From: Candidatus Thorarchaeota archaeon
Lineage (GTDB): Archaea; Asgardarchaeota; Thorarchaeia; Thorarchaeales; Thorarchaeaceae
NCBI GenBank assembly: GCA_046758445.1
Contig: JBHIAE010000005.1
Location: 32,001 to 96,000 of the forward strand
Length of the DNA stretch: 64,000 bases
Reading direction: 5' to 3'
Shown here one piece after another: positions 3,711-25,479 of the stretch (its first letter is position 1; each line of letters opens with the position of its first letter). The notes beneath the pieces are model-generated. The model was given only the letters and a program-made list of their open reading frames with translations, had not been told where the DNA came from and ran no database searches. Made by a program: the position numbers and the translations under genes.

Positions 3711-5042
3711 ATGGTTCGAGTCATCCCTTTCAGAGCATTCAGATATGACGAAACGAAGGTTGGAGACCTCAGTAAGGTCGTAGCTCCACCCTACGACATC
3801 ATCAAGGGTCAGAAGGTGGATGAGCTTCAGTCGCTCTCCGACTACAACATCTCTTGGATAATCAAGAACAGACCCCGAGAAGGTGACACACCCGAGAATA
3901 ATCAGTACACCAGGGCGCGTGATCTTCTGAACCAGTGGATGGAAGAGCGTATCGTGATACAGGACGAACAGGAAGCATTCTACGTCTACGGGCAGAACTT
4001 CTCAGTGAATAACCAAGATCTGTTTAGATTTGGGTTCATAGGTCTGATTCAACTTGAGGATTTTACGCAAGAGGCTCCTGAGAGTGGTATGTTCGCTGGG
4101 GTTCTTCAACACGAAGAAACCTTGCCTAAGGACATCCAAGATAGACTCAGCCTGTGTAGAGCATGCATGACACAGTTTGGACAGATATTCGTCATATATC
4201 CGGACCCTGAAGGGGAAATTGATGACGTTCTTGAGAGGCAAATGAAGCAGAAACCGACTGTCGATGTCACAGACAGCGACGGTGTCCGGCACAGGATTTG
4301 GATGGTCGATAATGCTGAAGACACGAGACTCATCACCGAATACATGAATGAGAAGTACATAATCATAGCCGATGGACACCACAGGTACAAGACTGCGCTA
4401 GCCCTCTCCAGAGAGAATCCAGACCTCGAGAGTGCGAAGTATAGAATGCTGACATTTGTGAACATCTCGAACCCAGGACTAGTCATCCTTCCGACTCATC
4501 GGGTCGTTCAGAATCTGGAGGATTTCTCGAGGGAGGAACTACTTGCCAGATTGAACCAACACTTCACTGTAAATTCGTTTGGGAAGAAGGAAGACATGTT
4601 CGCTCTTATGGCTAAGAAGTTCGATAGCGGTGCTCACACTTTTGGCCTCTTCGTGAATGACGGAATTTTCTATGCCCTCACATTGAATGATCCAGACCTA
4701 ATGGATGAGGTGCTTCCAGACAAGTCTCCTGAACATCGCGGACTTGATGTGGCTATTCTGCACTCGCTCATCCTTGATCGCATGTTAGAGATTGATAGAG
4801 AGAAGCTTGCCCAGGGTACAATGAAGGGTGGAGGTTTCGTCGTCTATGTCAAGGGTATCGGCGACGCTGTAGAGGAAGCGATTAAGTCGGTCGAGGGTGA
4901 TGCTCAAGCAGTGTTCTTCATGAACCCAACACGGATTGAGGAGGTAGAGACCATTTCAAGAAACATAGAGGTGATGCCGCAGAAGAGCACCTTCTTCTTT
5001 CCGAAAGTGTGGACGGGCTTTACAATGAACAAGTTGCGATAG
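3711..5042 (+). CDS. DUF1015 family protein (ParB/Srx-like core)
   Basis: PFRAFRY, APPYDII, HEET, IADGHHRY and C-terminal MPQKSTFFFPK. Confidence 0.9.
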   Translation: MVRVIPFRAFRYDETKVGDLSKVVAPPYDIIKGQKVDELQSLSDYNISWIIKNRPREGDTPENNQYTRARDLLNQWMEERIVIQDEQEAFYVYGQNFSVNNQDLFRFGFIGLIQLEDFTQEAPESGMFAGVLQHEETLPKDIQDRLSLCRACMTQFGQIFVIYPDPEGEIDDVLERQMKQKPTVDVTDSDGVRHRIWMVDNAEDTRLITEYMNEKYIIIADGHHRYKTALALSRENPDLESAKYRMLTFVNISNPGLVILPTHRVVQNLEDFSREELLARLNQHFTVNSFGKKEDMFALMAKKFDSGAHTFGLFVNDGIFYALTLNDPDLMDEVLPDKSPEHRGLDVAILHSLILDRMLEIDREKLAQGTMKGGGFVVYVKGIGDAVEEAIKSVEGDAQAVFFMNPTRIEEVETISRNIEVMPQKSTFFFPKVWTGFTMNKLR

Positions 5043-5051
5043 GTGATTCAG

Positions 5052-6137
5052 ATGACAAAGAGAGTTTACAACTTCTATGCAGGTCCTGCAACACTACCGT
5101 TGCCCGCGCTCGAGAAGGCGCGAGAAGAGCTCCTAGACTTCGCCGGCACCGGCATGTCAATACTTGAGATCTCTCACAGATCAAAGGAATACGACAAGAT
5201 GCACAATGAAGCAACTAAACTAATACGAGAGTTGATGGAGATACCGGAAGAGTACAAGGTTCTTTGGCTTCAGGGTGGTGCATCAAGTCAGTTCTTTATG
5301 GCTCCTGTCAACTTGCAGATGCCAGGGAAACCTATGCAGTACGTGGACACGGGAACATGGTCATCGAAGGCACTGAAAGAGGCAAAGCTCTATGGAGAGG
5401 TACAGGTCGTAGCCTCGTCTGAGGATGACAACTACTCCTACATTCCAAAAGATGTAGGATTCAGTGAGAATGCAGCCTTTGCCCACATTACGAGCAACAA
5501 CACAATCTATGGGACACAATGGCAGCGATGGCCTGAAGTGCCAGACTCAGTTCCACTCGTCTGTGACATGTCTTCTGACCTCTTGGCTAGGAGAATCAAC
5601 GTGAAGGACTTCGGCGTGATCTATGCTGGTGCGCAAAAGAACCTCGGACCTGCTGGAGTCACACTTGTCGTGTTGAGAGAGGATTTAGTTGAGAGAGTGG
5701 CTGAAGATGTTCCAACACTAATGAAGTGGAAGACTGAGGTGGAAAAGAACTCGTTGTTTCATACCCCTCCGTGCTTTGCGATATACATATCCAAGCTTGC
5801 ACTTGAATACTGGAAGGAAGTCGGGGGTATTGCCAAGATAGAGAAGCAAAACAGGGAGAAGGCCAAGATTCTCTACGATGTGATTGATGGCTCAGATGGG
5901 TTCTACAGAGGACATGCGAGGGAAGACTCTAGGTCTCTCATGAACGTCACGTTTACTTTGGCGAATGCCGACCTCGAAGCCAAAGCCGTTGCTGAAGGAC
6001 TAGAGCATGACCTCGTAGGTCTGAAGGGACATCGATCCGTGGGAGGCATGAGAGCGTCCATCTACAATGCGATGACAATGGAAGGCACCAAGAAGCTAGC
6101 AGAGTTCATGACTCGTTTCAAAGAGAACAATCAGTAG
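5052..6137 (+). CDS. serC: Phosphoserine aminotransferase
   Basis: YNFYAGPATLP, SHRS, LQGGAS, DMSS, GAQKNLGPAG (PLP lysine), GHRSVGGMRASIYNA; ATG at 5052 follows AGGTGA. Confidence 0.95.
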   Translation: MTKRVYNFYAGPATLPLPALEKAREELLDFAGTGMSILEISHRSKEYDKMHNEATKLIRELMEIPEEYKVLWLQGGASSQFFMAPVNLQMPGKPMQYVDTGTWSSKALKEAKLYGEVQVVASSEDDNYSYIPKDVGFSENAAFAHITSNNTIYGTQWQRWPEVPDSVPLVCDMSSDLLARRINVKDFGVIYAGAQKNLGPAGVTLVVLREDLVERVAEDVPTLMKWKTEVEKNSLFHTPPCFAIYISKLALEYWKEVGGIAKIEKQNREKAKILYDVIDGSDGFYRGHAREDSRSLMNVTFTLANADLEAKAVAEGLEHDLVGLKGHRSVGGMRASIYNAMTMEGTKKLAEFMTRFKENNQ

Positions 6138-6195: not shown

Positions 6196-6843
6196 CTAGC
6201 GGTACTGCTTTACAGTCCTCAGAAACTTCTTGACGTTCTCTGTTATGATTTCGAAACGACCTTCACTGATAGCCTTCTTGTCAGTGATGGCACTACCGAC
6301 CCCTAGAGCAAATGCTCCAGCCTCCAGAAGTGGGCCTGCCGTTTCAAGATTGACGCCGCCAGTCGGCACAAGAGGAATCTGCGGAAGCGGCGCTCTGATC
6401 GCTTTTATGTATGCCGCACCACCTAGGTTTCCACAGGGAAACACCTTGACAGCATCAGCTCCCAAAGTGTAGGCATCAAGAATCTCAGATGGGGTCATTG
6501 CGCCTGGAATGCACGCCTTTGAGTGTCTTTGGGCCGCCTCGATGAGTTCTCTTGAGTACCCCGGGCTCACAATGAATTCGCTACCTGCCTGTACGGCCTC
6601 ATCTACCATCTCTGCGTTGAGAACAGTTCCAGTGCCTATGAGTACTTTGTTTCCAAGCTTCTGAGTCAGCTTGCGGACTACCTCAGTAGCACCCGGCACA
6701 CTGAAGGTAACCTCAATGATGTTGACTCCACCTTCCAGAAACGCCTCCGCCACATTGAACGCCTTTTCGGTTGAGTCTACTCTAATGATTGGGATCAGAC
6801 CTGTTTCATACACAAGATCCATTACCTTCTTTTTGTTCCACAC
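6196..6843 (-). CDS. eda: KDPG/KHG aldolase
   Basis: IEVTF, IGTGTVL, FIVSP, GAMTPSEI, VKVFP, PTGGVN. Confidence 0.92.
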   Translation of the reverse strand: MWNKKKVMDLVYETGLIPIIRVDSTEKAFNVAEAFLEGGVNIIEVTFSVPGATEVVRKLTQKLGNKVLIGTGTVLNAEMVDEAVQAGSEFIVSPGYSRELIEAAQRHSKACIPGAMTPSEILDAYTLGADAVKVFPCGNLGGAAYIKAIRAPLPQIPLVPTGGVNLETAGPLLEAGAFALGVGSAITDKKAISEGRFEIITENVKKFLRTVKQYR

Positions 6844-6855
6844 TTAAGCCAGCAC

Positions 6856-7851
6856 CTACCTGTCTATTCGGAGACCTCTCTCTCGACCCTTTATCAGCTT
6901 CTCAACTTCAGACTTGTATACAAATGCCAAATCGCCGGGGACTGAATGCTTCAGAGCAGAGAACGCTGAACCAAAGTCTACGGCTTTCTGCAGATCTTTC
7001 AGGATTAGATATCCATAGATGAAGCCGGCACTGCATGAGTCCCCTCCTCCGAGACGGTCCACAACTTCGACATCGTATGTGCGGCTTCGGTACACCTTTC
7101 CGTCCGAGTAGGCGAACACAGACCATTTGTTCTGCCATACTGATGGAGTTTCACGTAGTGTAATGACGACCACCTCAAAGCCAAACTTGTCAGTCAGCTT
7201 CTTAGCGACCTCCTCGCAGTCCTTTCCTTCAATCCCGTAGACTGTCTTTGTGTCCTCTTCAGTGGTTATCAGGATGTCAATGTGCTCTGACGCCGGTCCA
7301 GTGAACTTGTTTGCCTCCTTTGGAGTCCAGAGCTTGCCTCGGTAGTTCACATCGTATGATACTTTGCACCCCTGCTTCTGTGCCGCCGCGAGCACCTCAT
7401 TGGTTGCTTCTGCACAGGACGGACTGAGGGCCGGCGTGATTCCACTTGTGTGAAACAACTTTGTGCCTTTGAGAATGTCTTTCCAACTCACTTCCCCCGG
7501 CTTTATCTTGCTAATTGCTGATTCTCTTCGGTCATAGATGACACGGTTAGTTCTTGGAGCTGCTCCGAACTCCACGAAGTATACTCCACATCTGCTATCG
7601 GAGTCCCAGAGGATGTGTGACGTATCAACACCGTGTTCGCGCGCCTTGTTGCGAATGAAGTGACCAATTGAATTGTCGCCTAACTTGGTAACATAAGCCG
7701 ACTCGAGTCCAAGTCGGGCACAGGCAACTGCCACATTCATCTCCGCTCCCCCGGCATGTGCATCAAAGCCAGTTGTCTGTTCAAATCTCATGAAGTTGGG
7801 CGGTGAGAGTCTGAGCATGACTTCACCAAAGGTTACTACATCATATCCCAT
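6856..7851 (-). CDS. kdgK: 2-keto-3-deoxygluconate kinase (PfkB family)
   Basis: VVTFGEVMLRLSPP, GGAEMNVA, YDR, SGITPALS, DVNYRGKLW, VDRLGGGDS, ALKHSVPGD. Confidence 0.88.
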   Translation of the reverse strand: MGYDVVTFGEVMLRLSPPNFMRFEQTTGFDAHAGGAEMNVAVACARLGLESAYVTKLGDNSIGHFIRNKAREHGVDTSHILWDSDSRCGVYFVEFGAAPRTNRVIYDRRESAISKIKPGEVSWKDILKGTKLFHTSGITPALSPSCAEATNEVLAAAQKQGCKVSYDVNYRGKLWTPKEANKFTGPASEHIDILITTEEDTKTVYGIEGKDCEEVAKKLTDKFGFEVVVITLRETPSVWQNKWSVFAYSDGKVYRSRTYDVEVVDRLGGGDSCSAGFIYGYLILKDLQKAVDFGSAFSALKHSVPGDLAFVYKSEVEKLIKGRERGLRIDR

Positions 7852-7931
7852 TAGACCACTCTCGAGCGTTCAGGCAAACAAGTGGGTTGTTTAGTGGTCT
7901 AAATGTTAAATCTGTCGTCAATGATACCTTT

Positions 7932-10277
7932 CTAGCTGCTTCTCGAGAACTCCGTCCGTGCAATCACCTCATCCTGCACGAATGGATCTAGTTCTATGAA
8001 GTAAGCGCTATACCCTGCTACTCTGACTATAAGGTCTCTATGCTGCAAAGGATTGATTTTGGCATCTTCTAGAGTTTCTTTGTCGACCACATTGAATTGT
8101 ACGTGCAGTCCACCTAAGGCAAAGTAGCCCTCGATAAGACTAATGAACTTCTTCCGACTCGTGAGAGTGTCAAAGTAGTCTGGTGTGAATTTCATATTGT
8201 ACAGTGTCCCATTGTAGCAGAGTCTATGGTCCAAACGCGCCACCGACTTCATGGCCGCTGTGGGACCACGTACATCTCGATTCTGTGTTGGCGATACGCC
8301 ATCAGACAACATTATCCCTGCTTTTCTTCCATCCGGCGTTGCCCCGAGCACCTCTCCCTGGGGAATATACATAGATACCGAGAACAATGCACCATGGTAT
8401 GGGCCGTTTCTTGTAGTCATTCGGCTCTGAATTGACTTGCAGAACGCCCTGCCTGTGTCACGCGCGAGAAAGTCCACGCTCTCTATGTCGTTTCCATACT
8501 TGTCCGGATCATTCTCAAGGCGGACCCGAAGGTCCTCATGACCTTCAAAGTTGGTTGCAAGAGCATCAAGCATCTCTTCCATGGGGATACTCTTCTCTTC
8601 AAACACATGTTTCCTTAACATCGAAAGAGAATCTGCAACAATCCCAACTCCAACCCCCATTATGCCTCCGGAGTTGTATCTGACGCCTCCGTCTTGCATT
8701 GTCATTCCGTTTTCAAGGCAACCGTCAAGAAGTGCAGATATGAAGGGGGTTGGTGTCATCTTAGAAAGCATACCAGCCGCGATTCTGTCAGCTCTCGTGA
8801 GGAGTTCGATCGCATGGTCAATCTGCTTCTCATAGGCCCCCCACAGTTCATCGAACGATTTGAACTCGTTCGGATCACCAGTTTCTAGCCCTACGAGCGT
8901 TCTGCTTCGGGGGTCCCTTCCGTTGTTCAGAGTTATCTCAAGTATCTTAGGCAGATTCACATAACCGATATTCTGTCTGGCATCTGTCTTGCCTTCGATA
9001 ATTGGTTCGACACAGCCCAGAATTGAGTAGTTGTGAGCCTCATCCAGGTCTGTGCCCTTGTCAATCATCGTTGGTATTATGACCTCATCGTTGAAGATCC
9101 CTGGCATTCCAAGCCCCTTAGAGACCACATCGACAACTTTCAGCTTGAACTCTTCCGGCGTGCCTTGATGCCATCTGAAAGAAACTGTTGGTTGGGTGAC
9201 TCTCACGTTCGCCGTCACTTCGAGGACCAAGTCAGTCAGTTCATTACATACGTCTTTCCCTTCTGCGTCCTGACCCCCAATGGTCAGGTTCTGAAACATA
9301 GGGAACCCTGCAAAGGCAACACTGTAGTACTCGTTTCTCAGTTTGATGAGCGAGGCGAACTTGATCCACAGCATTTCAAGAAGGGCAACTGCATCGTCCC
9401 TTGTCAGTTCCCCTGAATCGATACTCTTCTTGTAGAGAGGATACAAGTACTGATCGAATCTACCAGTCGAAATGGAATGGCCATTTGACTCGGTCTGCAC
9501 CAACAATTGAATGAACCAGAACGACTGTATTGCCTCACGGAAGGTTCTGGCAGACTTGGCTGGCACCCTTCGACATATCTCTGCTATCTTCAGTAGCTCT
9601 TCTCTTCTGTCCGCATCTTCCTCTTGATGGGCAAGACTCTCAGCCAAGTCAGCAAACCTGTGTGCGTAGTGAATAATCCCTTCCATAGCAATCTCGACAG
9701 ACTCGTAGAAATGTTTCTGATTTGTTTCTTCGGCCCGCTTCTTTCGGTCAGATGCTTCCTCGGCAATCGCTTCAAGGCCTTCCTCTATTACTCTCTGATA
9801 ATCAACAATGACATGGCCTATTCCCGTTCCAGGAGCTCCTATCGTGAACAGTCCGGCTTTCGAAGCGCGCTGAGACTCCATCGGCATTTCTTCTTTGCAC
9901 AGCTCGGAGGTGCTCTTTCCACGCCAATACTCGAACACCTCTCTCAGTGCTTCTTTGTCTTTCTCGCCTATCTCAAATCTCTCTGTCCTTCTCTTGTTGA
10001 ATCGGTCCAACTCTTGATTGATCCATGTCCAACTGTATTCCGGGAAGATCTGACAAGAACGGGGAGTGGGTCCCATGTTTCCAACTATGATCTCTTCCGG
10101 CTCTATACGGAGTGTCATGTTGGCGAGAACATGTGAGAAAGCCTTGGCAAGTCGAATCTGTGTTGGTTCCTCTTCATGACTCATGACGTAGTCTGTGAAC
10201 CGCCTGGCTCTCTCAGATGATATTGTTGGCTGAGCCTCTAACATTCTATCGCGCAAGCGACCGGTCCGAGAGTTCAT
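7932..10277 (-). CDS. Glycyl radical enzyme, glycerol/diol dehydratase-like (PFL2) clade
   Basis: Cys loop LGCVEP, Gly loop RVAGYSAYF, SNGHSIS, RFDQYLYP, QNLTIGG. Confidence 0.92.
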   Translation of the reverse strand: MNSRTGRLRDRMLEAQPTISSERARRFTDYVMSHEEEPTQIRLAKAFSHVLANMTLRIEPEEIIVGNMGPTPRSCQIFPEYSWTWINQELDRFNKRRTERFEIGEKDKEALREVFEYWRGKSTSELCKEEMPMESQRASKAGLFTIGAPGTGIGHVIVDYQRVIEEGLEAIAEEASDRKKRAEETNQKHFYESVEIAMEGIIHYAHRFADLAESLAHQEEDADRREELLKIAEICRRVPAKSARTFREAIQSFWFIQLLVQTESNGHSISTGRFDQYLYPLYKKSIDSGELTRDDAVALLEMLWIKFASLIKLRNEYYSVAFAGFPMFQNLTIGGQDAEGKDVCNELTDLVLEVTANVRVTQPTVSFRWHQGTPEEFKLKVVDVVSKGLGMPGIFNDEVIIPTMIDKGTDLDEAHNYSILGCVEPIIEGKTDARQNIGYVNLPKILEITLNNGRDPRSRTLVGLETGDPNEFKSFDELWGAYEKQIDHAIELLTRADRIAAGMLSKMTPTPFISALLDGCLENGMTMQDGGVRYNSGGIMGVGVGIVADSLSMLRKHVFEEKSIPMEEMLDALATNFEGHEDLRVRLENDPDKYGNDIESVDFLARDTGRAFCKSIQSRMTTRNGPYHGALFSVSMYIPQGEVLGATPDGRKAGIMLSDGVSPTQNRDVRGPTAAMKSVARLDHRLCYNGTLYNMKFTPDYFDTLTSRKKFISLIEGYFALGGLHVQFNVVDKETLEDAKINPLQHRDLIVRVAGYSAYFIELDPFVQDEVIARTEFSRSS

Positions 10278-10330
10278 CCCATGCAGTATCTCCCAGAGAG
10301 CTATTTACTCTTCCTCTTGCGGTCTTTCTT

Positions 10331-11491
10331 CTACTTGAGAAGCTTTGGAACGTAGGAATCCAACCGCTGGATGGCTTCTTCAATCACTTCAGTAGACATG
10401 GCGTAGCATATGCGCAGGAATCCTTCGCCGTACTTGCCGAAGGCAGAGCCATGGACGGTAACAACACCTGTTTCTTCCAGAAGTCTGATTGCCAAGTCCC
10501 AGCTGGCCAATCCATACCTTGAAACATCAGGGAACACATAGAAAGCTCCGCCTGGTGGACTCAGTTCTATTCCTTCTATTGCCTGAAGCCCCTTGGTAAT
10601 GGTATCACGGCGTCTTCGGAACGTATCTGTCATCCTCTTCACAGAATCTTGGGGCCCTCTTACTGCCGCCTCGGCCGCCTTCTGAGATATTGAGGTTGGC
10701 ATGGACAGGACGTGTTCTTGTAACTTCACCATACTCGATATTATCTCAGATGGCCCAGTCGAGAAACCAATTCGCCATCCAGTCATCGCGTAGGTCTTAG
10801 AGAATGAGAAGAGCGTAACAGTTCTCTCCTTCATTCCGGGCAGAGAAGCAATGAACAAGGGCTTTTCATCATCCCATCGGAACTTCTCGTATGCTTGGTC
10901 GGATAAGACCACGAGATCGTTTTCAATGGCAATCTCAGCCACTCTCTTCAGTTCCTTCGCGGGCATTGTGCCCCCTGTAGGATTGTTCGGGAAGTTGAGT
11001 ACGAGCAGCTTCGTTTTGTCTGTGATAAGGGGTTCAAGATCTTCTGCTTTGAAGGAGAACCCAAGGTCTCTCTTGAGCTGCACAGCGATACCTTTGCCGC
11101 CACACAAAGTGACATGCGCCGGGTGGCTGACAAATCCGGGATCAGGATAGATTACTTCGTCGCCGGGGTCGACAAGCACAAGGTTTGCGAGAAGCAGAGA
11201 CCCCATCCCACCACCCGTGCAGATAATCTCGGTCTTGGGATCCGCCTCTATTCCGTTGTCTCGTTTCAGTTTCTCCGCAAATGCCTCACGGACTTCCAGC
11301 ATTCCGGCATTCAACGTGTATTTTGTGTATCCCTCATCGATGGCTCTCTTGGCAGCATCTTTGATATACTGAGGTGTGTCGAAATCTGGAAGTCCAACTG
11401 TCATGTCGAGTGCGTTCTCATGTCCTTTGGCCATGTTGAACATCTTGCGAATTTCGCTTGCAACAATCATTTGGTTCCTCTGAGCGAGCAT
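10331..11491 (-). CDS. Class I/II PLP aminotransferase (AspAT-like)
   Basis: GLPDF, NFPNNPTG, SDQAY, SFSKTYAMTGWRIG, FLRICYA; probable start at ATG 11491. Confidence 0.9.
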   Translation of the reverse strand: MLAQRNQMIVASEIRKMFNMAKGHENALDMTVGLPDFDTPQYIKDAAKRAIDEGYTKYTLNAGMLEVREAFAEKLKRDNGIEADPKTEIICTGGGMGSLLLANLVLVDPGDEVIYPDPGFVSHPAHVTLCGGKGIAVQLKRDLGFSFKAEDLEPLITDKTKLLVLNFPNNPTGGTMPAKELKRVAEIAIENDLVVLSDQAYEKFRWDDEKPLFIASLPGMKERTVTLFSFSKTYAMTGWRIGFSTGPSEIISSMVKLQEHVLSMPTSISQKAAEAAVRGPQDSVKRMTDTFRRRRDTITKGLQAIEGIELSPPGGAFYVFPDVSRYGLASWDLAIRLLEETGVVTVHGSAFGKYGEGFLRICYAMSTEVIEEAIQRLDSYVPKLLK

Positions 11492-11644
11492 GGGACATCT
11501 CCTCGAGCACGCGGAGCCTTGCCTCTTTATATAATATGTCAATGGGGTCCGATTCAGAGGTCAGAGATTGAAGACAATGCGTCAGAGTAGATTTAAGGCA
11601 CTTGTCGGACGTGGCGCAGTATCTCTACAAATGGAGGCCACCAT

Positions 11645-12313
11645 GTGACCAGCAAGAAGACAAAGATAATCGATAGGACCCTTAGACTGTATGTAGCAGC
11701 GCTATCCGACGCGGCTGATGAAGTTGGGATTGGAAGGGTATGTATGGATCGCGGTATTGTCCCACTGACCATCAACAAGAGGATGGCCGGATTTGCTAGA
11801 ACTGGAAAGCTAGTAAGACCTCCAGCTCAGCGGCCATATGATGAGGCACAGCTAGACATGTTCATGAGTCTCGCAACAGAGGCCCAGGTTGATGATCTGG
11901 TCGTAATCGATTCTGGAAAGGCCGATGATTGCTCTGTCTGGGGTCAGATCCTCACGAAAATCGGGATAGCAAAGGGACTAAGAGGGGCAGTCGTGGACGG
12001 GACCTCACGCGATATCGATGACATAGACAAGACAGGATTCGTAGTCTTTGCGCGTGGGTTGCATCCTGGGACCATGAGGGGACGCCTTGACATGGAGTCG
12101 ATTAGTGAGCCGATTGTTTGCGGTGGCGTGACTGTCCATCCGGGTGATCTTGTCTTTGCTGACGCTGATGGTGTTGCTGTCATTCCTCAAGACAAGATAG
12201 ATGCGGTTCTTACGCATGCCGAGGAAGTTGTAGACACAGACAGCTGGTGGGCAAAGAAGCTGGATGACGGCGAGGACCCCCACGACCTGCACAAAGAGAA
12301 ACCGATACCCTAG
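11645..12313 (+). CDS. RraA family / HMG-CHA aldolase-like protein
   Basis: ALSDA, VWGQILT, GAVVDGTSRD, VHPGDLVFADADGVAVIP. Confidence 0.85.
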   Translation: MTSKKTKIIDRTLRLYVAALSDAADEVGIGRVCMDRGIVPLTINKRMAGFARTGKLVRPPAQRPYDEAQLDMFMSLATEAQVDDLVVIDSGKADDCSVWGQILTKIGIAKGLRGAVVDGTSRDIDDIDKTGFVVFARGLHPGTMRGRLDMESISEPIVCGGVTVHPGDLVFADADGVAVIPQDKIDAVLTHAEEVVDTDSWWAKKLDDGEDPHDLHKEKPIP

Positions 12314-12322
12314 CAGCAACGA

Positions 12323-13453
12323 TCACAAGTCAATTGGATACCGACCTCGTTTCTCGGCGTAGTCATACATCTCCAGGACCTTCTCAGGTGTAGAGTCTGG
12401 CTGAATGTTGTGCGCAGGTGCTAGGAGATAGCCGCCTCCGGGAGCGAGTGCGTTTAGCCGTGTATCAATCTCAGATCTGACATCCTCAAGCGTACCTCGT
12501 TCAGACATTGCGCGCTGAAGATCTATGCCACCATGGAAGGTCAATCGATCTCCGTACTTCTCCTTGAGGGTAGCGGAGTCCATGCCCTTTGCCAGGGGCT
12601 GGATAGGATTCAGAATGTCTACGCCCACGTCGATCAAGTCATCAATCATGGGCTCTATCGCTCCGCAACTGTGAAAGAGAACCTTAACATTGGGAGCTCT
12701 CTTGTGAATGTCACCGTAGATCTTCTTGTGCCGCGGTTTGACAAGTTTCCGATACATTCGTGGGCTCATTATCAGTCCATCTTGATGCCCCAGATCATCG
12801 CCAACCTGTACAAGGTCAAGGTACTCACCAACCTCATCTAGAAGCACGCGGTTCATGTCGAGGGCGAGCTGCATCGCCTTTTCCATCATTGCCTCTGCAA
12901 GTTTCGTGTTTTGACCTAGATCAATCAAGAATCTGTCAAACCCACGCATGTAGTGTTCCAGGATCTCGAAGACGCCCCACGGTCCTCCTACCATTCCCAC
13001 AACTGCAGTATCGGTCTTCTCATGAAGATGCTTTGCCCATTCAACCACTCCCTCCATCCTGGAAGAATCGTCGGCGTCTGGCCACTCGTACTCCTCGATT
13101 TGCTCTACTTCTTCAAAGTCAGCCCAAGGAAAATGAGTCACTTCCCAATAGTAACCGACGTATTTTCCCCGGAATCCATACTCTGTGTCTGTGGAACCGT
13201 CAGGATAGGTCTTCATCTTGAAACTAGATGATTGTTTCATGTATACTCGACGGAAATCCACATGGAGTCGACGAAGCATCTCTTCGGAGATGTTCCAAGT
13301 TTCCATTATCCCCCACTCTTGGTCCTCTGTGGCGGTCACACCAAGGTGGTTTCGCAGACTCCTATAGGCCGCAGATGTGGTCCAATAGTCGATTGGGACT
13401 CTATCTGGTTCTTCGTGGCTTACGGCTCTATGGAATCTTTCTCTCGGCTTCAT
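12323..13453 (-). CDS. Uroporphyrinogen decarboxylase family (MtaA/CmuA-like) protein
   Basis: PRERFHRAVSHEEPDRVP, GDDLG, HSCG, LNPIQP, FHGGID, GGYLLAPAHNIQPD. Confidence 0.85.
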   Translation of the reverse strand: MKPRERFHRAVSHEEPDRVPIDYWTTSAAYRSLRNHLGVTATEDQEWGIMETWNISEEMLRRLHVDFRRVYMKQSSSFKMKTYPDGSTDTEYGFRGKYVGYYWEVTHFPWADFEEVEQIEEYEWPDADDSSRMEGVVEWAKHLHEKTDTAVVGMVGGPWGVFEILEHYMRGFDRFLIDLGQNTKLAEAMMEKAMQLALDMNRVLLDEVGEYLDLVQVGDDLGHQDGLIMSPRMYRKLVKPRHKKIYGDIHKRAPNVKVLFHSCGAIEPMIDDLIDVGVDILNPIQPLAKGMDSATLKEKYGDRLTFHGGIDLQRAMSERGTLEDVRSEIDTRLNALAPGGGYLLAPAHNIQPDSTPEKVLEMYDYAEKRGRYPIDL

Positions 13454-13744
13454 GTTCCTTTGACTCCTTGTGTGTCACACAATGTACTGACTCGCAGTTT
13501 AACTTCCCGTTGAGATGCAATCTCTATTAAACCTTCAGCGGAAACGTTTATCTAGCTCACGGAGTTCAAGCGTCTTCCTAAGGAGGTTGTGCAAGATGGG
13601 AAAGATGAAGGTCGCGATTCTCTGTTGTCCAGAGGATTTCAGGATGGAATCGGTTGAAATCTGGAAACCGGGCCCGAGATGGCTCCTGATAAGCGTAGGA
13701 CCTGTTAACGTGGGCAAGTATTTCGGACACGGGATGTATGAAGA

Positions 13745-14215
13745 ATGGTAGCACCATCTGCTGATGATGTTAGAGTAGTTGGTATGTCGACCGTTGCCTC
13801 CGCACATGTTGTCTACGTGGAAACCGTTCGGGCCGCCTTTGGTAAGAAGGGACTCGAAGCGCTGGCCGAAGCGAATCGTCTACATGGACTGGAGCTCGGG
13901 GAGCAGGGTGTCAAGGACGGAGGTCTCAGAAAGGGTGATTTGAATTCAATTCATGACTTCTTTGCAGCTGCATATCCGTACTTCGGATTTGTCCTGGAGA
14001 TTGCTGATGCATCCGATCGACTGTTGGATCTGAAAGTGACTGAATGTCCATGGATTGACACTTTCCGTACTAAGAACGCCAATGATGATATCTGCCACTG
14101 GGTCACGAAGATTGACGAAGGAATCGGTCAGGCCGTAGATCCCGGTCTCAGGATGACTCTTCCAATGTGTATGATGCGAGGAGATGACCACTGCATCTAC
14201 AGATGGGAAAAATAG
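13745..14215 (+). CDS. L-2-amino-thiazoline-4-carboxylate hydrolase-like / V4R-fold small protein
   Basis: VTECPW, C...ID and CMMRGDDHC motifs. Confidence 0.65.
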   Translation: MVAPSADDVRVVGMSTVASAHVVYVETVRAAFGKKGLEALAEANRLHGLELGEQGVKDGGLRKGDLNSIHDFFAAAYPYFGFVLEIADASDRLLDLKVTECPWIDTFRTKNANDDICHWVTKIDEGIGQAVDPGLRMTLPMCMMRGDDHCIYRWEK

Positions 14216-14387
14216 CATCTGAGTAAGTCAAATCGACTCAAATCCAACAGGCATCTTTGCCTACGAGGTCCGCGGCCACGTTCCGTCTTCAAACGACTTT
14301 AAATCAAATTAAGACACACCGGAGCTCTTAATTAACACCTTCTGAATCACCAGTGATTTGAGGATGATTGTCTGCAGCTAGACACTT

Positions 14388-15785
14388 ATGGAGAGCCTTG
14401 TCATGGTCGATGTGAAGAAGATCACTCAACTTTTGTCCGATGCTACTAGTCCCGACAGGGTCACTGACAAGGACTTCGATCTCATTTCCTATAGCAGAGA
14501 TTTGAGCCCCGCGAAGCAGAAACTTCCATCTCACGTTGTACTGGCAGAAACCCGGGAGGAGATTCAGAAGATTCTTGCGATTGCGAACAAGAATGATGTC
14601 CCGGTCTATATACGGGGCGGAGGCACTTCCCATTGGGATGCTTTTTTGCCTCAGGAACCAGGCATTATGGTTGACCTAGCACGTATGAATAAGGTCCTTG
14701 AAATAAACGAGAGAGACCTTGTAGTGACAGTGCAGCCGAACTGCACCTGGGCGAAGATGGATGAAGAACTACGGAAGAGAGGCCTGACGTATCTTTGCAG
14801 TGAAGCCGGAGGCCCGGCTATGACCGTGGGCGGTTCTGTCATGAAGGCAGGTGGCGGACCACATTCCACGGCCAAGTTCGGCTTCCACGGCAACCAAGAT
14901 GTGATTTGTCTGGAGATGGTGCTACCCAATGGCGACGTTGTCCAGACTGGTTCCGCGGCTTGGCCGAGTGCAGGGAAGTTTGAGCGACAATGCCTTGGAC
15001 CAGACTTGGCTGGAATGTTTCTAGGAGCTGAAGGAATACTGGGTGTTTGCACCGAGTTGAGTCTTCGGATTCGTCCAGCCGTTGATTTCAAGGAACGATT
15101 GAGCGCAGTCTTACCCACACTTGACGATGTAGTTGAGTTTGGCCATTTCATAAACAGGCATGTGGGCGACGAGTACCTACAAGGAATCTACCTATGGGTT
15201 GCCCCAGACACCCCAGATCTCTTCTTCATAATGATGGACATCTTCGGATATGAGCCTGAGATTGTGAAGCACCGCAAGAAGAAGATACTGGACAAGATTG
15301 CTGAACTGGGTGGAGAGATTGCAGACCGTGCTCCAGCAGACGACTATTATGACCGCATTCTGACAGGGCTCACAGACTTGTTCACTGCTGGTGTCTGGCA
15401 CTTCTTTGGTGCTGGGTCTCTCAGAATAGATGACATCAAGTTCCTGTACAAGATATGGCGAGAGGAGTTACTTGAGAAACGTGGCTACACGAAGGCTGGA
15501 TTCGGTGGACAGGTCCTACCACGAAGATGGCTGGCTTTCATGGTCACTAACTACAAGGAGCCAGAGGAATGGGAGGAACTTGTGAAGATGGCCGACGAGA
15601 TCGACGAGATGACCTTGAAAGGCCCGGTAGTACCCTACGGAGTGGGAGGACGAGACGGGCTTCGCCAATTCGTGGCTTCGCATGATACAGGCTACTATCG
15701 ATTGCTCAAGACACTCAAGCAGACTTTGGACCCAAAGAACATTCTACAGCGAGGCATATTCATCCCGGAGGAGGAGTTGCAGTGA
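14388..15785 (+). CDS. FAD-linked oxidoreductase (GlcD/D-lactate dehydrogenase-like)
   Basis: RGGGTS, TVGG, LEMVLPNG, GAEGILGV, LDPKNILQRG. Confidence 0.85.
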   Translation: MESLVMVDVKKITQLLSDATSPDRVTDKDFDLISYSRDLSPAKQKLPSHVVLAETREEIQKILAIANKNDVPVYIRGGGTSHWDAFLPQEPGIMVDLARMNKVLEINERDLVVTVQPNCTWAKMDEELRKRGLTYLCSEAGGPAMTVGGSVMKAGGGPHSTAKFGFHGNQDVICLEMVLPNGDVVQTGSAAWPSAGKFERQCLGPDLAGMFLGAEGILGVCTELSLRIRPAVDFKERLSAVLPTLDDVVEFGHFINRHVGDEYLQGIYLWVAPDTPDLFFIMMDIFGYEPEIVKHRKKKILDKIAELGGEIADRAPADDYYDRILTGLTDLFTAGVWHFFGAGSLRIDDIKFLYKIWREELLEKRGYTKAGFGGQVLPRRWLAFMVTNYKEPEEWEELVKMADEIDEMTLKGPVVPYGVGGRDGLRQFVASHDTGYYRLLKTLKQTLDPKNILQRGIFIPEEELQ

Positions 15786-16978
15786 GAATCGAGGAATTCA
15801 AGGATATGATCTATGCCTGCGGCAGGTGCAACTTCTGTAGAGGCACAGATTTCAATGAGCGCTGCCCAGAGGTGTTCACTCAGTTGTGGGAATCATCCAC
15901 ACTCCGCGGTCGGATGGCGATTGCCAGAGGAATCCTTGAGGGTCAACTTGACTATTCAGACGACTTGGCTGAGCGCATCTTCGGATGCTTCATGTGTGGG
16001 CGGTGCAGAGAGGAGTGCAAGAAGGCTGCTCAGATTGATGCTATTGCCATCACTAAAGCAATGCGAGCAGATTTTGTCGATAAAGGTGTCAAGATTCCCG
16101 AGGGTGGCACCAACATGGTAGATACTGCCATAGACTCAGGTAACATCTTCGCTGACACTCCTGCTAGACATACGAAGTGGGCTGAGGGATTGACATTCAA
16201 GGAGGGCTCAGGGACTCTATTCTATCCCGGATGTCTGGCAAGTCATAGATTCAAAGAGAAGACTAACATCTTGGTCAAAGTCCTACAAGCCGCGGGATAC
16301 GAGCTCGACTTCCTGGGCGACGACCAGACATGCTGCGGTACACCATTTTGGATATCAGGAAAGGTCGGGAATGCGAAGGAATGGGCCGAGAACTACCTCA
16401 AGAAGCTGAATGCACGCGGAGTGAAGGAGATCATTACTCCATGTCCGAGCTGCTTCAGAGCTTTTGATGAAGAGTATCCAGCTCTGTTGGGACTGGAGGA
16501 GTTTCCAATCCGAATCAGGCACACCAGTGAAGTGCTCGAAGAGATAGTGGACAAGAAGAAGCTGAAGTTCAAGGTTTCTCTTGACAAGCGTGTCACCTAT
16601 CACGATCCATGTGAGATTGGACGGTATAGAGAGATCTATGATCCTGGTAGGAAGGTTTTGTCCTCACTGCCAGGAGTAGAGTATGTGGAAATGTCAAGAT
16701 ACCGTGAGGAGGCATTCTGTTGCGGTGGAGGTGGCGGTGTCAAGATCATGTACGAGAATCACTCAAACAAAGTCGCCGAGGAACGAATCAATGACTTCAT
16801 CGACACGGAGGCCGACATTCTAACTACAGTTTGTCCTGCCTGCGAAATGAACCTTACTCATGGCACCTATGCGGCGGATGTCGAGGCGAGAGTTCTGGAC
16901 ATTGCTGAACTGATTGCGGTTGCCGCAGGAATTGTAGACAAGGGAATCCTTGAGCCAGACTATTTCCCAGAAGATTGA
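15782..16978 (+). CDS. Fe-S oxidoreductase with CCG domains (GlcF/HdrD-like)
   Basis: Two CxxCxxC motifs, YPGC, CCG, CPSC, YHDPC, CCGGGGG, CPAC; start overlaps the upstream stop (GTGA). Confidence 0.88.
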   Translation: MRIEEFKDMIYACGRCNFCRGTDFNERCPEVFTQLWESSTLRGRMAIARGILEGQLDYSDDLAERIFGCFMCGRCREECKKAAQIDAIAITKAMRADFVDKGVKIPEGGTNMVDTAIDSGNIFADTPARHTKWAEGLTFKEGSGTLFYPGCLASHRFKEKTNILVKVLQAAGYELDFLGDDQTCCGTPFWISGKVGNAKEWAENYLKKLNARGVKEIITPCPSCFRAFDEEYPALLGLEEFPIRIRHTSEVLEEIVDKKKLKFKVSLDKRVTYHDPCEIGRYREIYDPGRKVLSSLPGVEYVEMSRYREEAFCCGGGGGVKIMYENHSNKVAEERINDFIDTEADILTTVCPACEMNLTHGTYAADVEARVLDIAELIAVAAGIVDKGILEPDYFPED

Positions 16979-17570: not shown

Positions 17571-18356
17571 TTGACTGAACCGAACGGACATAGAACTACA
17601 CTGAGGGAATGGCTTGCGGCTCACGCACGCTCTGAGCCAGTCCATTATAGGAAGATTGCTGAAGCTTTAGGCAGAGATGCTGCATCCGTTTCAGCATCGC
17701 TCTCAATTGAGCGAAAGCAAGCTGAGGAAGACAATCGGCCGCCTTACTTCGTCCGAGTCGGATCTGGACTATATCAGTACAATGATCTATGCGAAGGGGC
17801 TGTCGACGAGGACCTCATCAGGGAGGTCCGGGCTCGCGCCGACGAGTTCAATCTCGTTACGCGAAGGGAAATGCGGCAAAGAATCTCAAAGCTCAGCCTT
17901 GATAGTTTCGAAGAGCTCGCTAAGATAGTCCTTCTGAATATCCGTGCCCGTGTAGAAGAGGCGAGGGTGGTCCGAAGGTATGACAATACGGTAGTAATGA
18001 CTGTATCTTGGCGAGATGATGGTGGCCGTTCTCCTGTTGTGGTCTATGCGAAGAAGTGTAGATTCGATGAGAAGATCGAGAGCGATACGATACTGGAGAT
18101 TCGAGGTTCCTTGCCGACCTACCAGGCAAACCAAGGTGTACTAATAACCAATGGCATTGTATCCGCTCAGGCAAAGAGTGAGGCATTGGGATATGCTGGT
18201 ACCGATGTGAAGGTTTCCGTGCCTCCAGTCCACTTGATGGATATCGACATTCTACTGAATGTGCTTCTCGAGAGCAGGACTGGTGTCAGAACGAGAAGCG
18301 TGGAAGTGCTGCTCCCGGACGATGAGTTCTGGGAACACTTGACGAGCCGGGGCTAG
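17571..18356 (+). CDS. HARE-HTH-like winged helix fused to an Mrr-type endonuclease domain (catalytic site degenerate)
   Basis: PVHYRKIAE...FVRVGSGLY; FEEL, YAKK, GVLIT, LMD. Confidence 0.7.
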   Translation: MTEPNGHRTTLREWLAAHARSEPVHYRKIAEALGRDAASVSASLSIERKQAEEDNRPPYFVRVGSGLYQYNDLCEGAVDEDLIREVRARADEFNLVTRREMRQRISKLSLDSFEELAKIVLLNIRARVEEARVVRRYDNTVVMTVSWRDDGGRSPVVVYAKKCRFDEKIESDTILEIRGSLPTYQANQGVLITNGIVSAQAKSEALGYAGTDVKVSVPPVHLMDIDILLNVLLESRTGVRTRSVEVLLPDDEFWEHLTSRG

Positions 18357-23315: not shown

Positions 23316-23470
23316 TCAGACCCAGCCTCTGTTTAAGCTTGTTAAACTCCAGTTGACTCCACTGCTATATATTTCCAATGGAGAGAATGGACTGGTGTCA
23401 TTTACTAGGTGCCGTACAGAAGAAGGAAGGGAGGTGTTATGTGCACTCTCCCCACACGTGAAGGCCAGAC

Positions 23471-24412: not shown

Positions 24413-24464
24413 ATCATTACCTCGCCTATTTGTCTTCGTGAATCCTGTCAGAGTTCATTGACTT

Positions 24465-24567
24465 GACAATATCAGATTGTCGATTCGAGAGAAAGCGTCG
24501 GTTTAAAATCTAATGGTACAACAGCTTTTACTAACTTTAAGATAGCACGACAGTCGTGCCATGGCAC
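24465..24567. promoter_or_regulatory. Divergent promoter region with several inverted repeats (candidate operators)
   Basis: GACAAT-N5-ATTGTC (24465-24481), GCACGAC-A-GTCGTGC (24545-24559), GTGCCATGGCAC (24556-24567), and TTTAAAAT/TTTAAG TATA-like boxes. Confidence 0.5.
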
Positions 24568-24625
24568 AACATATTAATGTCATCCATCTACCTCTTCGAC
24601 GATAGTTCAGATTACCATCTTTGAG

Positions 24626-25438: not shown

Positions 25439-25479
25439 CATCAGCCTGAGATTTCCCGGCGAAAGAGGAGAGAGAATCA

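What the first reader, a model, noticed from the sequence alone, without database searches (positions are those of the whole stretch)
6196..10277. Glycyl radical dehydratase beside kdgK-eda: candidate radical entry into the Entner-Doudoroff pathway
Seen: GRE, kdgK and eda are consecutive and co-oriented, with no IlvD/Edd-type or enolase-type dehydratase in the window. The GRE keeps the glycerol/propanediol dehydratase hallmarks (GIGH, SNGHS, GCVEP). By my recollection of glycerol dehydratase, its pocket is altered: GNYYYNG becomes GAPGTG, GYPMY becomes GFPMF, WHD becomes RQN and GLYP becomes ALFS, which suggests a larger substrate. Inference: it dehydrates an aldonic acid (or deaminates an amino-aldonate, given the upstream aminotransferase) to a 2-keto-3-deoxy acid, which KdgK and Eda convert to pyruvate and GAP. 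I know of no characterised GRE with this role. Caveat: the 80-bp gap before kdgK has its own TATA-like sequence.
Basis: partly seen in the sequence, partly recalled or inferred. Interest (0 to 1): 0.8.

Follow-up and report, generated by a model that had tools for sequence, protein, structure and literature searches.

The report
Asgard radical enzyme beside KdgK-Eda
A Thorarchaeota (Asgard archaeon) genome keeps a lineage-specific, uncharacterised oxygen-sensitive glycyl radical enzyme next to its only sugar-acid kinase and aldolase; the enzyme probably makes their 2-keto-3-deoxy acid substrate by radical chemistry not yet described, but the real substrate is untested.

Summary
On the minus strand lie an aminotransferase (10331-11542), a 781-aa glycyl radical enzyme (GRE, 7932-10277), a KDG-kinase-like PfkB kinase (6856-7851) and an Eda aldolase (6196-6843).

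The GRE keeps the diol-dehydratase catalytic head: His155, His267/Ser268, Cys422-x-Glu424 and Gly755. Its distal pocket is remodelled, and Arg434 and Asn436 are invariant in the clade.

It forms an isolated clade found only in the window's own family, Thorarchaeaceae. The next relatives are at most 44% identical, and it scores below every NCBIfam equivalog cut-off.

GRE-KdgK-Eda adjacency holds in 32 of the 36 related loci that contain the GRE gene. Across the family's 85 other genomes the GRE and KdgK are present or absent together: 58 have both, 24 neither, 3 one only. The genome has no Edd/IlvD, UxuA, UxaA/GarD, UxaC or enolase-type sugar-acid dehydratase.

Functional coupling is therefore likely. 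The substrate (an aldonate or otherwise) is unproven. The aminotransferase is not a strict member of the module. The GRE and kdgK each have their own conserved promoter-like element.

This scan has noted the same cassette before in other Thorarchaeota genomes. Verdict: a new variant of a known enzyme class, of moderately high interest.

The parts
7932..10277 (-). Glycyl radical enzyme, 781 aa (P0001). Key residues: His155 (GIGH), His267/Ser268 (SNGHS), Cys422-Val-Glu424 (GCVEP), Arg434/Asn436 (RQN), Phe328, Phe632, Gly755 (RVAGYS).
   Evidence: Pfam and NCBIfam matches. Alignment to PDB 1r8w. Motif conservation across 120 clade members. AlphaFold2 model with pLDDT 94.8; TM 0.97 to glycerol and propanediol dehydratases.
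6856..7851 (-). PfkB-family kinase resembling 2-keto-3-deoxygluconate (KDG) kinase, 331 aa.
   Evidence: PfkB 151 bits. NCBIfam KDG/KDGal kinase 314 bits (cut-off 440) and the kinase part of an aldolase-kinase fusion, 382 bits. Best solved relative is T. maritima KDG kinase 2afb, 273 bits.
6196..6843 (-). Eda: KDPG / 4-hydroxy-2-oxoglutarate aldolase, 215 aa. It is the only copy in the genome.
   Evidence: TIGR01182, 201 bits against a cut-off of 156. Best natural solved relative is T. maritima KDPG aldolase. Single PF01081 hit in the genome.
7904..7914 (-). Conserved CAGATTTAACA element about 55 nt upstream of the kdgK ATG. It is probably the TATA/BRE of a kdgK-eda promoter of its own, possibly also an operator.
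   Evidence: Sequence. Conserved in 33 spacers from related loci while the flanking bases vary.
10300..10313 (-). Conserved GAAGAGTAAATAGC element about 30 nt upstream of the GRE ATG. It is probably the GRE's own promoter, giving a short-leader or leaderless transcript.
   Evidence: Sequence. The GAARAGTAAT core is conserved in 34 spacers.
10331..11542 (-). Class I/II aminotransferase of AspAT/ArAT type. The TTG start at 11542 is probably too far upstream, because orthologues align from about residue 16. It is a neighbour, not a strict member of the module.
   Evidence: Pfam match. P. horikoshii ArAT/AspAT, 342 bits. Orthologues persist without the GRE and KdgK.
11645..16978 (.). Co-conserved flank: RraA-like aldolase/decarboxylase 11645-12313 (+), URO-D/MtaA-like protein 12323-13453 (-), ATC_hydrolase-like protein 13745-14215 (+), and a GlcD-like FAD protein 14388-15785 (+) with a GlcF-like CCG/Fe-S protein 15782-16978 (+).
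   Evidence: Pfam matches. Synteny across related loci. The URO-D-like gene has the same presence/absence pattern as the GRE.

Best explanation
The GRE is a new, Thorarchaeaceae-specific member of the 1,2-eliminase (diol-dehydratase-like) class of glycyl radical enzymes.

Activation (inferred): the genome's single stand-alone GRE activase on another contig installs the radical on Gly755, and the radical passes to Cys422.

Catalysis (inferred):
- The thiyl radical abstracts H from a carbinol carbon.
- Glu424 deprotonates that hydroxyl.
- His155 helps the oxygen substituent on the neighbouring carbon to leave.
- The result is a carbonyl next to a deoxy carbon.

Substrate (inferred): the distal pocket has lost the glycerol-binding Tyr/Asp/Tyr residues, has a shorter loop, and has gained an invariant Arg434/Asn436 pair. 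The substrate is therefore larger than glycerol and anionic. The best-supported reading is a sugar acid, either an aldonate losing its C3-OH or an anhydro- or ether-substituted aldonate opened at C3-O. That would yield a 2-keto-3-deoxy acid, which KdgK phosphorylates and Eda splits into pyruvate and a triose phosphate.

Shown here: enzyme class, intact catalytic residues, clade isolation, conserved linkage, joint presence and absence with KdgK-Eda, and the absence of classical KDG-forming enzymes. The substrate, the product and the order of steps are inferred.
For: Class and catalytic residues:
- PFL-like and Gly_radical domains; NCBIfam places it in PFL2/glycerol dehydratase subfamily TIGR01774 at 769 bits against a cut-off of 678.
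- Alignment to 1r8w keeps His164, His281/Ser282, Cys433 and Glu435 of glycerol dehydratase. It changes Y336F, Y339F, Y640F, W445R, H446Q, D447N and NYYYNG to AP-GTG.
- Arg434 and Asn436 are invariant in 120 clade members.
- In HypD the same two structural segments anchor the substrate carboxylate (PMC7077986).
- The model has pLDDT 94.8 and TM 0.97 to glycerol and propanediol dehydratases at 41% identity.

Distinct clade:
- One cluster at 50% identity, then a drop to 42-44%.
- Orthologues occur only in the own family among 400 Asgard genomes.
- In a tree it groups (support 0.99) with other uncharacterised GREs, three of four of which share the Arg, and is sister to the glycerol/propanediol dehydratase type.

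Linkage to KdgK-Eda:
- GRE-KdgK-Eda adjacency in 32 of the 36 related loci that contain the GRE gene.
- Among the family's 85 other genomes: both genes in 58, GRE only in 1, KdgK only in 2 (all three are 66-74% complete), neither in 24, including genomes 97-98% complete.
- In genus g2 the GRE is unlinked yet still co-present (G312). In G315 both genes carry in-frame stops on different contigs.

Gap in the pathway:
- Single Eda in the genome; no Edd/IlvD, UxuA, GD_AH, UxaC or enolase-type dehydratase.
- In another Asgard genome a classical GD_AH dehydratase sits in the same position, directly before a PfkB kinase and an aldolase.

Literature:
- No paper in the searched library links a GRE to KDG or KDPG.
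- A 2026 review states that no archaeal PFL-like GRE has a characterised function (PMC13450708).
Against: - No biochemical data exist.
- Aldonate dehydration does not need radical chemistry, because the alpha-proton is acidic. Why a costly GRE would be used is unexplained.
- The retained head residues are those of terminal 1,2-diol dehydratases, whose products are aldehydes. That would not give KDG from an aldonate unless the substrate binds with C2/C3 at the head.
- The GRE and kdgK each have a conserved promoter-like element, so co-transcription is not shown.
- Co-loss of adjacent genes can follow from a single deletion or a missing contig, and related genomes are not independent samples.
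- The URO-D-like gene shows the same presence/absence pattern and the RraA-like, ATC_hydrolase-like and GlcD/F-like genes are syntenic with it, so the island may encode a pathway in which the GRE acts at another step.
- In genus g2 the GRE lies next to housekeeping genes.
- The kinase scores below the NCBIfam KDG-kinase equivalog cut-offs.
Confidence: 0.45

Rival explanations
1. The GRE is a dehydratase for a different anionic 1,2-diol, for example D-glycerate, a dihydroxy-alkanoate, a 2-keto-3-deoxy-pentonate, a phosphorylated polyol or a sulfonated diol. It would make an aldehyde. It would belong to the same accessory catabolic island as KdgK-Eda, but act at another step or in a parallel branch, not as the supplier of KDG.
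For: - The whole glycerol/propanediol dehydratase head (His155, His267/Ser268, Cys422, Glu424) is kept, and only the tail pocket changes. HpfG is described in the same way for DHPS (PMC13450708).
- Phe328 and Val634 mimic propanediol dehydratase.
- The island also holds RraA-like, URO-D-like and GlcD/F-like genes with the same distribution or synteny.
- An aldehyde:ferredoxin oxidoreductase lies 20 kb away.
- The GRE, kdgK and the aminotransferase appear to have separate promoters.
Against: - It leaves the genome's only KdgK-Eda pair without any enzyme to make their substrate.
- It does not explain why the GRE sits exactly where a sugar-acid dehydratase is found in classical clusters.
- The score to the sulfonate eliminases is below their cut-offs.
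Confidence: 0.3
2. One reading: the GRE acts on an amino-aldonate such as glucosaminate. It would abstract H at the amine-bearing C2 and eliminate the C3-OH, and the imine would hydrolyse to KDG. The upstream aminotransferase would be part of the route.
For: - The aminotransferase lies directly upstream in nearly all related loci.
- An APC-family permease is in the conserved flank.
- HypD provides a precedent for H-abstraction next to nitrogen with loss of a beta-OH (PMC13450708).
Against: - Orthologues of the aminotransferase at 62-65% identity persist in genomes lacking both the GRE and KdgK (G317, G326, G329, G330). In the two examined (G329, G317) the context is unrelated.
- It is an ordinary AspAT/ArAT-type enzyme.
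- A deaminating GRE would not need a transaminase.
Confidence: 0.07
3. It is an ordinary B12-independent glycerol or 1,2-propanediol dehydratase, and its position beside kdgK-eda has no functional meaning.
For: The best sequence and fold matches are glycerol and propanediol dehydratases: 678 and 658 bits, TM 0.97.
Against: - Only 41% identity to them.
- The glycerol-binding Tyr339, Asp447 and Tyr640 and the WHD motif are all replaced, and the replacements are invariant in the clade.
- Linkage and co-occurrence with KdgK are conserved.
Confidence: 0.06
4. It is an alkyl- or benzylsuccinate synthase. A 70%-identical homologue from Thorarchaeota AB_25 is annotated that way in the database, and a 2021 paper proposed this function for Hermod- and Thorarchaeota GREs.
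For: - Database name of P0061.
- PMC8163825 classes Asgard GREs with a single active-site Cys as Ass/Bss.
Against: - It carries the CxE motif and the His of the 1,2-eliminases.
- It scores 315 and 296 bits to the solved BSS and MASS alpha subunits, against 678 bits to glycerol dehydratase.
- No small-subunit ORFs flank it.
- In the tree it is sister to the diol dehydratases.
Confidence: 0.02

Closest known systems
B12-independent glycerol dehydratase (Clostridium butyricum DhaB1; PDB 1R8W/1R9D)
   Same: Same fold (TM 0.97, rmsd 1.3 A) and 41% identity. The Gly radical motif, Cys-x-Glu, His164 and the His281/Ser282 equivalents are all retained, so the same radical 1,2-elimination chemistry is expected.
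   Different: - The residues on the side that holds glycerol's third carbon are replaced: Y339F, D447N, Y640F, W445R.
- The NYYYNG loop is shortened to AP-GTG.
- It is archaeal.
- There is no adjacent activase.
- Its neighbours are KdgK and Eda, not 1,3-propanediol genes.
GRE 1,2-propanediol dehydratases (Roseburia inulinivorans 5I2A/5I2G; Raoultella planticola 9RCO)
   Same: 39-41% identity and the same catalytic head. Phe at the Tyr339 position and Val at the Ser642 position, as in propanediol dehydratase.
   Different: - The propanediol dehydratases keep the GWHD motif and the aromatic loop.
- They sit in bacterial microcompartment loci for fucose and rhamnose use.
- The Thorarchaeota enzyme has Arg/Asn in the pocket and no microcompartment genes nearby.
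YbiW/PflD 1,5-anhydrohexitol-6-phosphate C-O lyases of E. coli and relatives
   Same: The pathway logic is alike: a GRE acts on a sugar derivative to create a keto-deoxy sugar, which an aldolase then cleaves. The CxE motif is shared.
   Different: - Only 34-36% identity, and below the PflD equivalog cut-off (612 bits against 1109).
- Their substrates are already phosphorylated.
- Their aldolase is of the Fsa type, not Eda.
Classical sugar-acid dehydratases feeding KdgK and aldolase (enolase-superfamily gluconate/galactonate dehydratases, IlvD/Edd, UxuA, UxaA/GarD)
   Same: They occupy the same position in the gene order: dehydratase, then kinase, then aldolase. An example is the Asgard genome G292. 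Their product is the one proposed here.
   Different: Their folds are unrelated and their mechanisms are non-radical (Mg2+ or Fe-S acid-base chemistry). None of them is present in this genome.

Membership tests
Glycyl radical enzyme superfamily (PFL-like) | PFL-like barrel plus a C-terminal glycine-radical domain with RVxG[FWY] | tested here: met
   PF02901 at 730 bits and PF01228 at 110 bits. RVAGYS at residues 752-757. The motif is conserved in 117 of 120 clade members.
Glycyl radical enzyme superfamily (PFL-like) | A radical-SAM activating enzyme is available | tested here: met
   One TIGR02494 hit above its cut-off (318 bits against 174) at G000:C43:9601-10467. It carries Radical_SAM and ferredoxin-type clusters. 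It is not adjacent to any of the genome's three GREs.
GRE 1,2-eliminase / isomerase class | [quoted passage not shown] | tested here: met
   G421-C422-V423-E424-P425. GCVEP occurs in all of the commonest clade variants tallied. The class definition is from PMC13450708.
B12-independent glycerol dehydratase | Residues that bind glycerol's C3 hydroxyl (Tyr339, Asp447, Tyr640) together with His164 | tested here: not met
   His164 is kept as His155, but Tyr339 becomes Phe328, Asp447 becomes Asn436 and Tyr640 becomes Phe632. The roles of these residues in glycerol binding are taken partly from my own recollection of the 1R9D paper.
GRE 1,2-propanediol dehydratase | GWHD strand and the aromatic NY(Y/F)FNG loop, with a hydrophobic Phe/Val pocket | tested here: not met
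   The Phe and Val equivalents are present, but GWHD becomes ARQN and the loop becomes AP-GTG.
HypD, CutC, HpfG, HpsG, PflD/YbiW, indoleacetate decarboxylase (NCBIfam equivalogs) | Score at or above the curated equivalog cut-off | tested here: not met
   Scores against cut-offs: 624/1100, 580/1050, 614/1000, 576/1000, 612/1109 and 456/1100.
C-S cleaving GRE eliminases (IslA/IseG/HpsG) | Arg-Gln-Arg triad that anchors the sulfonate | tested here: inconclusive
   Only the whole-protein score was tested, and it is below the cut-off. The loop GAPGTGIGH and the segment ALFSVS hold no Arg or Gln, but I made no residue-level alignment to IslA.
X-succinate synthases (BSS/ASS) | Close similarity to the BssA/MasD alpha subunit and presence of small beta/gamma subunits | tested here: not met
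   315 and 296 bits to the solved BSS and MASS alpha subunits, against 678 bits to glycerol dehydratase. No small ORFs of that kind flank the gene. The small subunits were not searched for across the genome.
2-keto-3-deoxygluconate kinase (PfkB family) | PfkB fold with closest similarity to characterised KDG kinases | tested here: inconclusive
   PfkB at 151 bits. The best hits are all KDG/KDGal kinases, but below equivalog cut-offs (314/440 and 182/400; 382/700 to the fusion protein). The best solved relative is KDG kinase 2afb at 273 bits.
Eda (KDPG/KHG aldolase) | TIGR01182 score above its cut-off | tested here: met
   201 bits against a cut-off of 156. The best natural structure match is T. 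maritima KDPG aldolase.

The most novel reading that the evidence does not exclude
The GRE is a radical sugar-acid dehydratase or C-O lyase that converts an aldonate (or an anhydro- or ether-substituted aldonate) directly into KDG or KDGal. This would create a third, oxygen-sensitive mechanistic class of sugar-acid dehydratase and a 'radical Entner-Doudoroff' entry in Asgard archaea. It would also be the first assigned function for any archaeal PFL-like glycyl radical enzyme.
Probability: 0.35. Interest if true: 0.8.

Novelty: new variant of a known kind. Interest (0 to 1): 0.65.

Why it matters
All PFL-like glycyl radical enzymes with known functions are bacterial (PMC13450708), and none acts on a sugar acid. 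Three things would follow if this clade is what it appears to be.

- It is a tractable target for assigning the first function to an archaeal GRE. The clade is compact and conserved, the fold model is high-confidence, there is a single candidate activase, and two neighbouring enzymes can be used for a coupled assay.
- It would revise metabolic reconstructions of Thorarchaeota and Hermodarchaeota, where these genes have been read as hydrocarbon-activating alkyl/benzylsuccinate synthases or as pyruvate formate-lyases.
- If the product is KDG, it would add radical chemistry to the small set of known ways into Entner-Doudoroff-type sugar-acid catabolism, and say something about carbohydrate use by the archaeal relatives of eukaryotes in anoxic sediments.

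Tried and rejected
1. Second radical dehydratase lead. In a Heimdall-type genome (G397) the closest KdgK-Eda pair outside the family follows two HGD-D subunits, two BcrAD-type ATPases and an HpcH aldolase. This looked like a second radical dehydratase displacing a classical one. Only 1 of 80 loci of that widely spread module has KdgK or Eda nearby, so it is coincidence.

2. Neighbourhoods of the nearest GRE relatives outside the clade.
- P0121 (Synergistaceae): tandem GREs plus an activase. None of the 80 loci recovered with the P0121 query (all but the Synergistaceae one only 37-43% identical to it) has KdgK, Eda or aminotransferase homologues.
- P0153 (Emergencia timonensis, Clostridium aminobutyricum): an amino-acid-fermentation context.
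- P0126: not found in the genome or metagenome contig collections.
- None of these gives a clue to the substrate.

3. Corrinoid-dependent demethylation involving the URO-D/MtaA-like neighbour. None of the genome's 10 B12-binding-domain hits lies on this contig. The reading is not supported here, but it is not excluded.

4. The aminotransferase as a pathway member: weakened.

5. New neighbours of the relocated GRE in genus g2 are a thermosome, a 2-oxoacid:ferredoxin oxidoreductase and a fumarase. They give no hint.

6. Protein Atlas look-ups of the URO-D-like protein and of the 755-aa neighbour of the activase gave nothing useful.

7. The sigma-70 promoter and intrinsic terminator scan does not apply to an archaeon, and it found nothing above its shuffled controls.

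No transcript evidence could be obtained, and read laying was not used.

Full report
**What is there.** The window comes from an Asgard archaeon MAG. Close homologues are labelled Thorarchaeota, Hermodarchaeota or Promethearchaeota. Four co-oriented genes lie on the minus strand:
- a class I/II aminotransferase at 10331-11542;
- a 781-aa glycyl radical enzyme (GRE) at 7932-10277;
- a PfkB kinase at 6856-7851;
- an Eda-type aldolase at 6196-6843.

The gaps between them are 53, 80 and 12 bp. The GRE has a full PFL-like domain (730 bits) and a glycine-radical domain (110 bits). The kinase's best NCBIfam hits are all KDG/KDGal kinases, below their equivalog cut-offs. Its best solved relative is the Thermotoga KDG kinase 2afb. 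The aldolase passes the TIGR01182 eda cut-off.

**The enzyme itself.** The closest solved relatives, by sequence and by fold, are the diol dehydratases:
- C. butyricum GD at 678 bits;
- Roseburia propanediol dehydratase (PD) at 658 bits;
- Raoultella PD (9rco; identified through PMC12756279) at 632 bits.

An AlphaFold2 model (pLDDT 94.8) superposes on these with TM 0.97 and rmsd 1.3 A, at 41% identity.

The catalytic head of GD is intact. His164 corresponds to His155, His281/Ser282 to His267/Ser268, Cys433 to Cys422, Glu435 to Glu424, and the radical glycine is Gly755. The roles of Cys, Glu and His are those given in the 2026 GRE review (PMC13450708).

All differences lie on the distal side of the pocket: Y336F, Y339F, Y640F, S642V, W445R, H446Q and D447N, and the NYYYNG loop is shortened to AP-GTG. 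In 120 clade members Arg434 and Asn436 are invariant and position 435 varies. In HypD the two equivalent segments hold the substrate's carboxylate (PMC7077986). The simplest reading is a diol-dehydratase-type radical 1,2-elimination on a substrate that is larger than glycerol and has an anionic tail.

**Is it a member of a characterised class?** No. It passes only the broad PFL2/glycerol dehydratase subfamily model. It is far below every equivalog cut-off: HypD 624/1100, HpfG 614/1000, PflD 612/1109, CutC 580/1050, HpsG 576/1000.

A search of 1.84 billion representatives clustered at 50% identity found the query's own cluster, and then nothing above 44% identity. Among 400 Asgard genomes, orthologues (at least 67% identical) occur only in the window's own family. 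All other Asgard GREs are at most 42% identical. The genome's two paralogues are among these (40% and 36% identical), and sit in unrelated contexts.

In a FastTree phylogeny of 153 sequences the clade groups, with support 0.99, with four uncharacterised representatives, three of which carry an Arg at the same position. That group is sister to the GD/PD type.

The published and database reading of such Asgard GREs as alkyl/benzylsuccinate synthases (PMC8163825; the name of P0061) is not supported. The enzyme has the eliminase CxE motif and His, and scores 315 bits to the BSS alpha subunit against 678 bits to GD.

**Linkage to kdgK-eda.** Among 45 related loci, the order CCG / FAD-binding / URO-D-like / RraA-like / ATC_hydrolase-like / aminotransferase / GRE / KdgK / Eda recurs, down to 67% GRE identity. 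GRE-KdgK adjacency is seen in 32 of the 36 loci that contain the GRE gene; of the other four, three are GRE-only loci and one is cut by a contig end.

Across the family's 85 other genomes the counts are:

| GRE orthologue | KdgK orthologue | Genomes | Notes |
|---|---|---|---|
| present | present | 58 | includes G349, where a KdgK fragment follows the GRE at a contig end |
| present | absent | 1 | G316, 66% complete |
| absent | present | 2 | G370 (74% complete), G390 (67% complete) |
| absent | absent | 24 | includes genomes 93-98% complete; mixed states within eight genera |

These genomes are kin and the genes are adjacent, so this is not a statistical test. Genus g2 adds a partly independent case. 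There the aminotransferase, KdgK and Eda are contiguous, and the GRE lies elsewhere beside a thermosome, a 2-oxoacid oxidoreductase and a fumarase. The GRE is intact in G312. In G315 both the GRE (three in-frame stops) and KdgK (two in-frame stops) are broken on different long contigs. In genus g15 a PAS histidine kinase is inserted between the GRE and kdgK.

**A gap the GRE could fill.** The genome is 92.7% complete. It has a single Eda and no ILVD_EDD, UxuA, GD_AH or UxaC homologue. Its one MR_MLE_C hit is enolase. The only KdgK-Eda pair therefore has no recognisable source of KDG. In another Asgard genome (G292) a kinase homologue sits in the classical layout: Zn-dehydrogenase, GD_AH dehydratase, PfkB kinase, DHDPS-type aldolase. 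The Thorarchaeota GRE occupies the dehydratase's position.

1. The aminotransferase is an ordinary AspAT/ArAT-type enzyme. Its orthologues persist in genomes lacking the GRE and KdgK (G317, G326, G329, G330); in G329 and G317 the surroundings are unrelated. The amino-aldonate idea loses its main support.
2. The spacers are not neutral. CAGATTTAACA lies about 55 nt before the kdgK start in 33 loci. GAARAGTAAT lies about 30 nt before the GRE start in 34 loci. Both are conserved against variable flanks and look like archaeal BRE/TATA elements. The genes are probably separate transcription units, and co-regulation is untested.
3. The URO-D-like neighbour has the same distribution as the GRE and the rest of the flank is syntenic with it, so the unit of gain and loss is a larger island, and the GRE's step within it is not fixed by genomics.
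4. Aldonate dehydration does not chemically require a radical enzyme.
5. The retained head is that of terminal-diol dehydratases, which make aldehydes.

**Mechanism proposed, and how sure.** The single stand-alone activase (C43; TIGR02494 at 318 bits) presumably serves all three GREs.

Shown:
- the enzyme class;
- intact radical and acid-base residues;
- the remodelled pocket containing Arg;
- the isolation of the clade;
- the conserved association with KdgK-Eda;
- the missing classical dehydratase.

Inferred:
- the substrate is a sugar acid bound through Arg434/Asn436;
- H-abstraction at a carbinol carbon with loss of the neighbouring oxygen substituent gives a 2-keto-3-deoxy acid;
- KdgK and Eda convert that acid to pyruvate and a triose phosphate.

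I put about 0.65 on functional coupling of the GRE with KdgK-Eda and about 0.45 on the GRE being the supplier of their substrate. About 0.35 of that 0.45 is for a simple aldonate or ether-aldonate route. The main rival (0.3) is a dehydratase for another anionic diol acting elsewhere in the island.

**Novelty.** Full-text searches found no paper connecting a GRE with KDG, KDPG aldolase or sugar acids. The 2026 review lists six C-O eliminases, none acting on a sugar acid, and states that no archaeal PFL-like GRE has a known function. This is a new variant of a known enzyme class in a new pathway context.

The same cassette has already been noted by this scan in several other Thorarchaeota genomes, with the same reading. 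Those are unchecked AI notes, not independent evidence.

**Limits.** No coordinates of the model could be inspected. The pocket argument therefore rests on sequence alignment to solved structures and on published descriptions. The roles of GD Tyr339, Asp447 and Tyr640 in binding glycerol are partly from my own recollection.

Noticed in passing
L145-L224 (query L061:2598-6762): A four-gene module of two HGD-D subunits and two BcrAD/BadFG ATPases, laid out like benzoyl-CoA reductase. Its first HGD-D subunit is 67-82% identical across Asgard archaea, Thermoplasmata, Bathyarchaeia, Aminicenantes, Anaerolineales, Planctomycetota and Gemmatimonadota (the other three parts 55-88%). That level of conservation across such distant phyla suggests frequent horizontal transfer.
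   Followed up: partly
window 3711-6137: A DUF1015 protein (443 aa) whose stop abuts a phosphoserine aminotransferase gene, serC (364 aa; NF003764 at 495 bits). The pair is syntenic with the cassette only in the closest relatives.
   Followed up: no
window 29780-31699 (-): A tungsten-type aldehyde:ferredoxin oxidoreductase (AFOR_N and AFOR_C) about 20 kb from the GRE, next to a luciferase-like oxidoreductase and an MFS transporter. It could oxidise an aldehyde product, but I did not examine its linkage to the cassette.
   Followed up: no
window 22200-27422: Two diverged S-Me-THD-like (DUF917) proteins flank a metallophosphoesterase-like gene and two ORFs with no Pfam match. An Asp/Glu/hydantoin racemase follows at 26658-27422.
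   Followed up: no
window 45346-51423 (+): An ORF of 2025 aa with no Pfam match at E<=1e-5.
   Followed up: no
G000 whole genome: No ILVD_EDD family member at all in a 92.7%-complete genome. This also implies there is no canonical dihydroxy-acid dehydratase for branched-chain amino acid synthesis.
   Followed up: no
L060:7219-10650 (G387) and L062:8772-12215 (G389): In one genus a multi-PAS histidine kinase of about 1145 aa is inserted between the GRE and kdgK. It could be a sensor for the pathway's substrate or for redox state.
   Followed up: partly
L034:14486-19593 and equivalents in most related loci: In most relatives eda is followed, in the same orientation, by four genes: a small SCP2-like protein, a second FAD_binding_4/FAD-oxidase_C protein, a second CCG/Fe-S protein, and a myo-inositol-1-phosphate synthase-like gene. 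This extension is not downstream of eda in the window.
   Followed up: partly
G000:C43:9517-12839 (L059): The genome's only clear GRE activase stands apart from all three GREs. It is divergent from a 755-aa protein that has only a faint CBM35 match and no informative relatives.
   Followed up: partly
window 32526-34730 (+): An Eco57I/TaqI-type fused restriction-modification methylase. A degenerate Mrr-like protein lies at 17571-18356, inside the conserved flank of the cassette.
   Followed up: no
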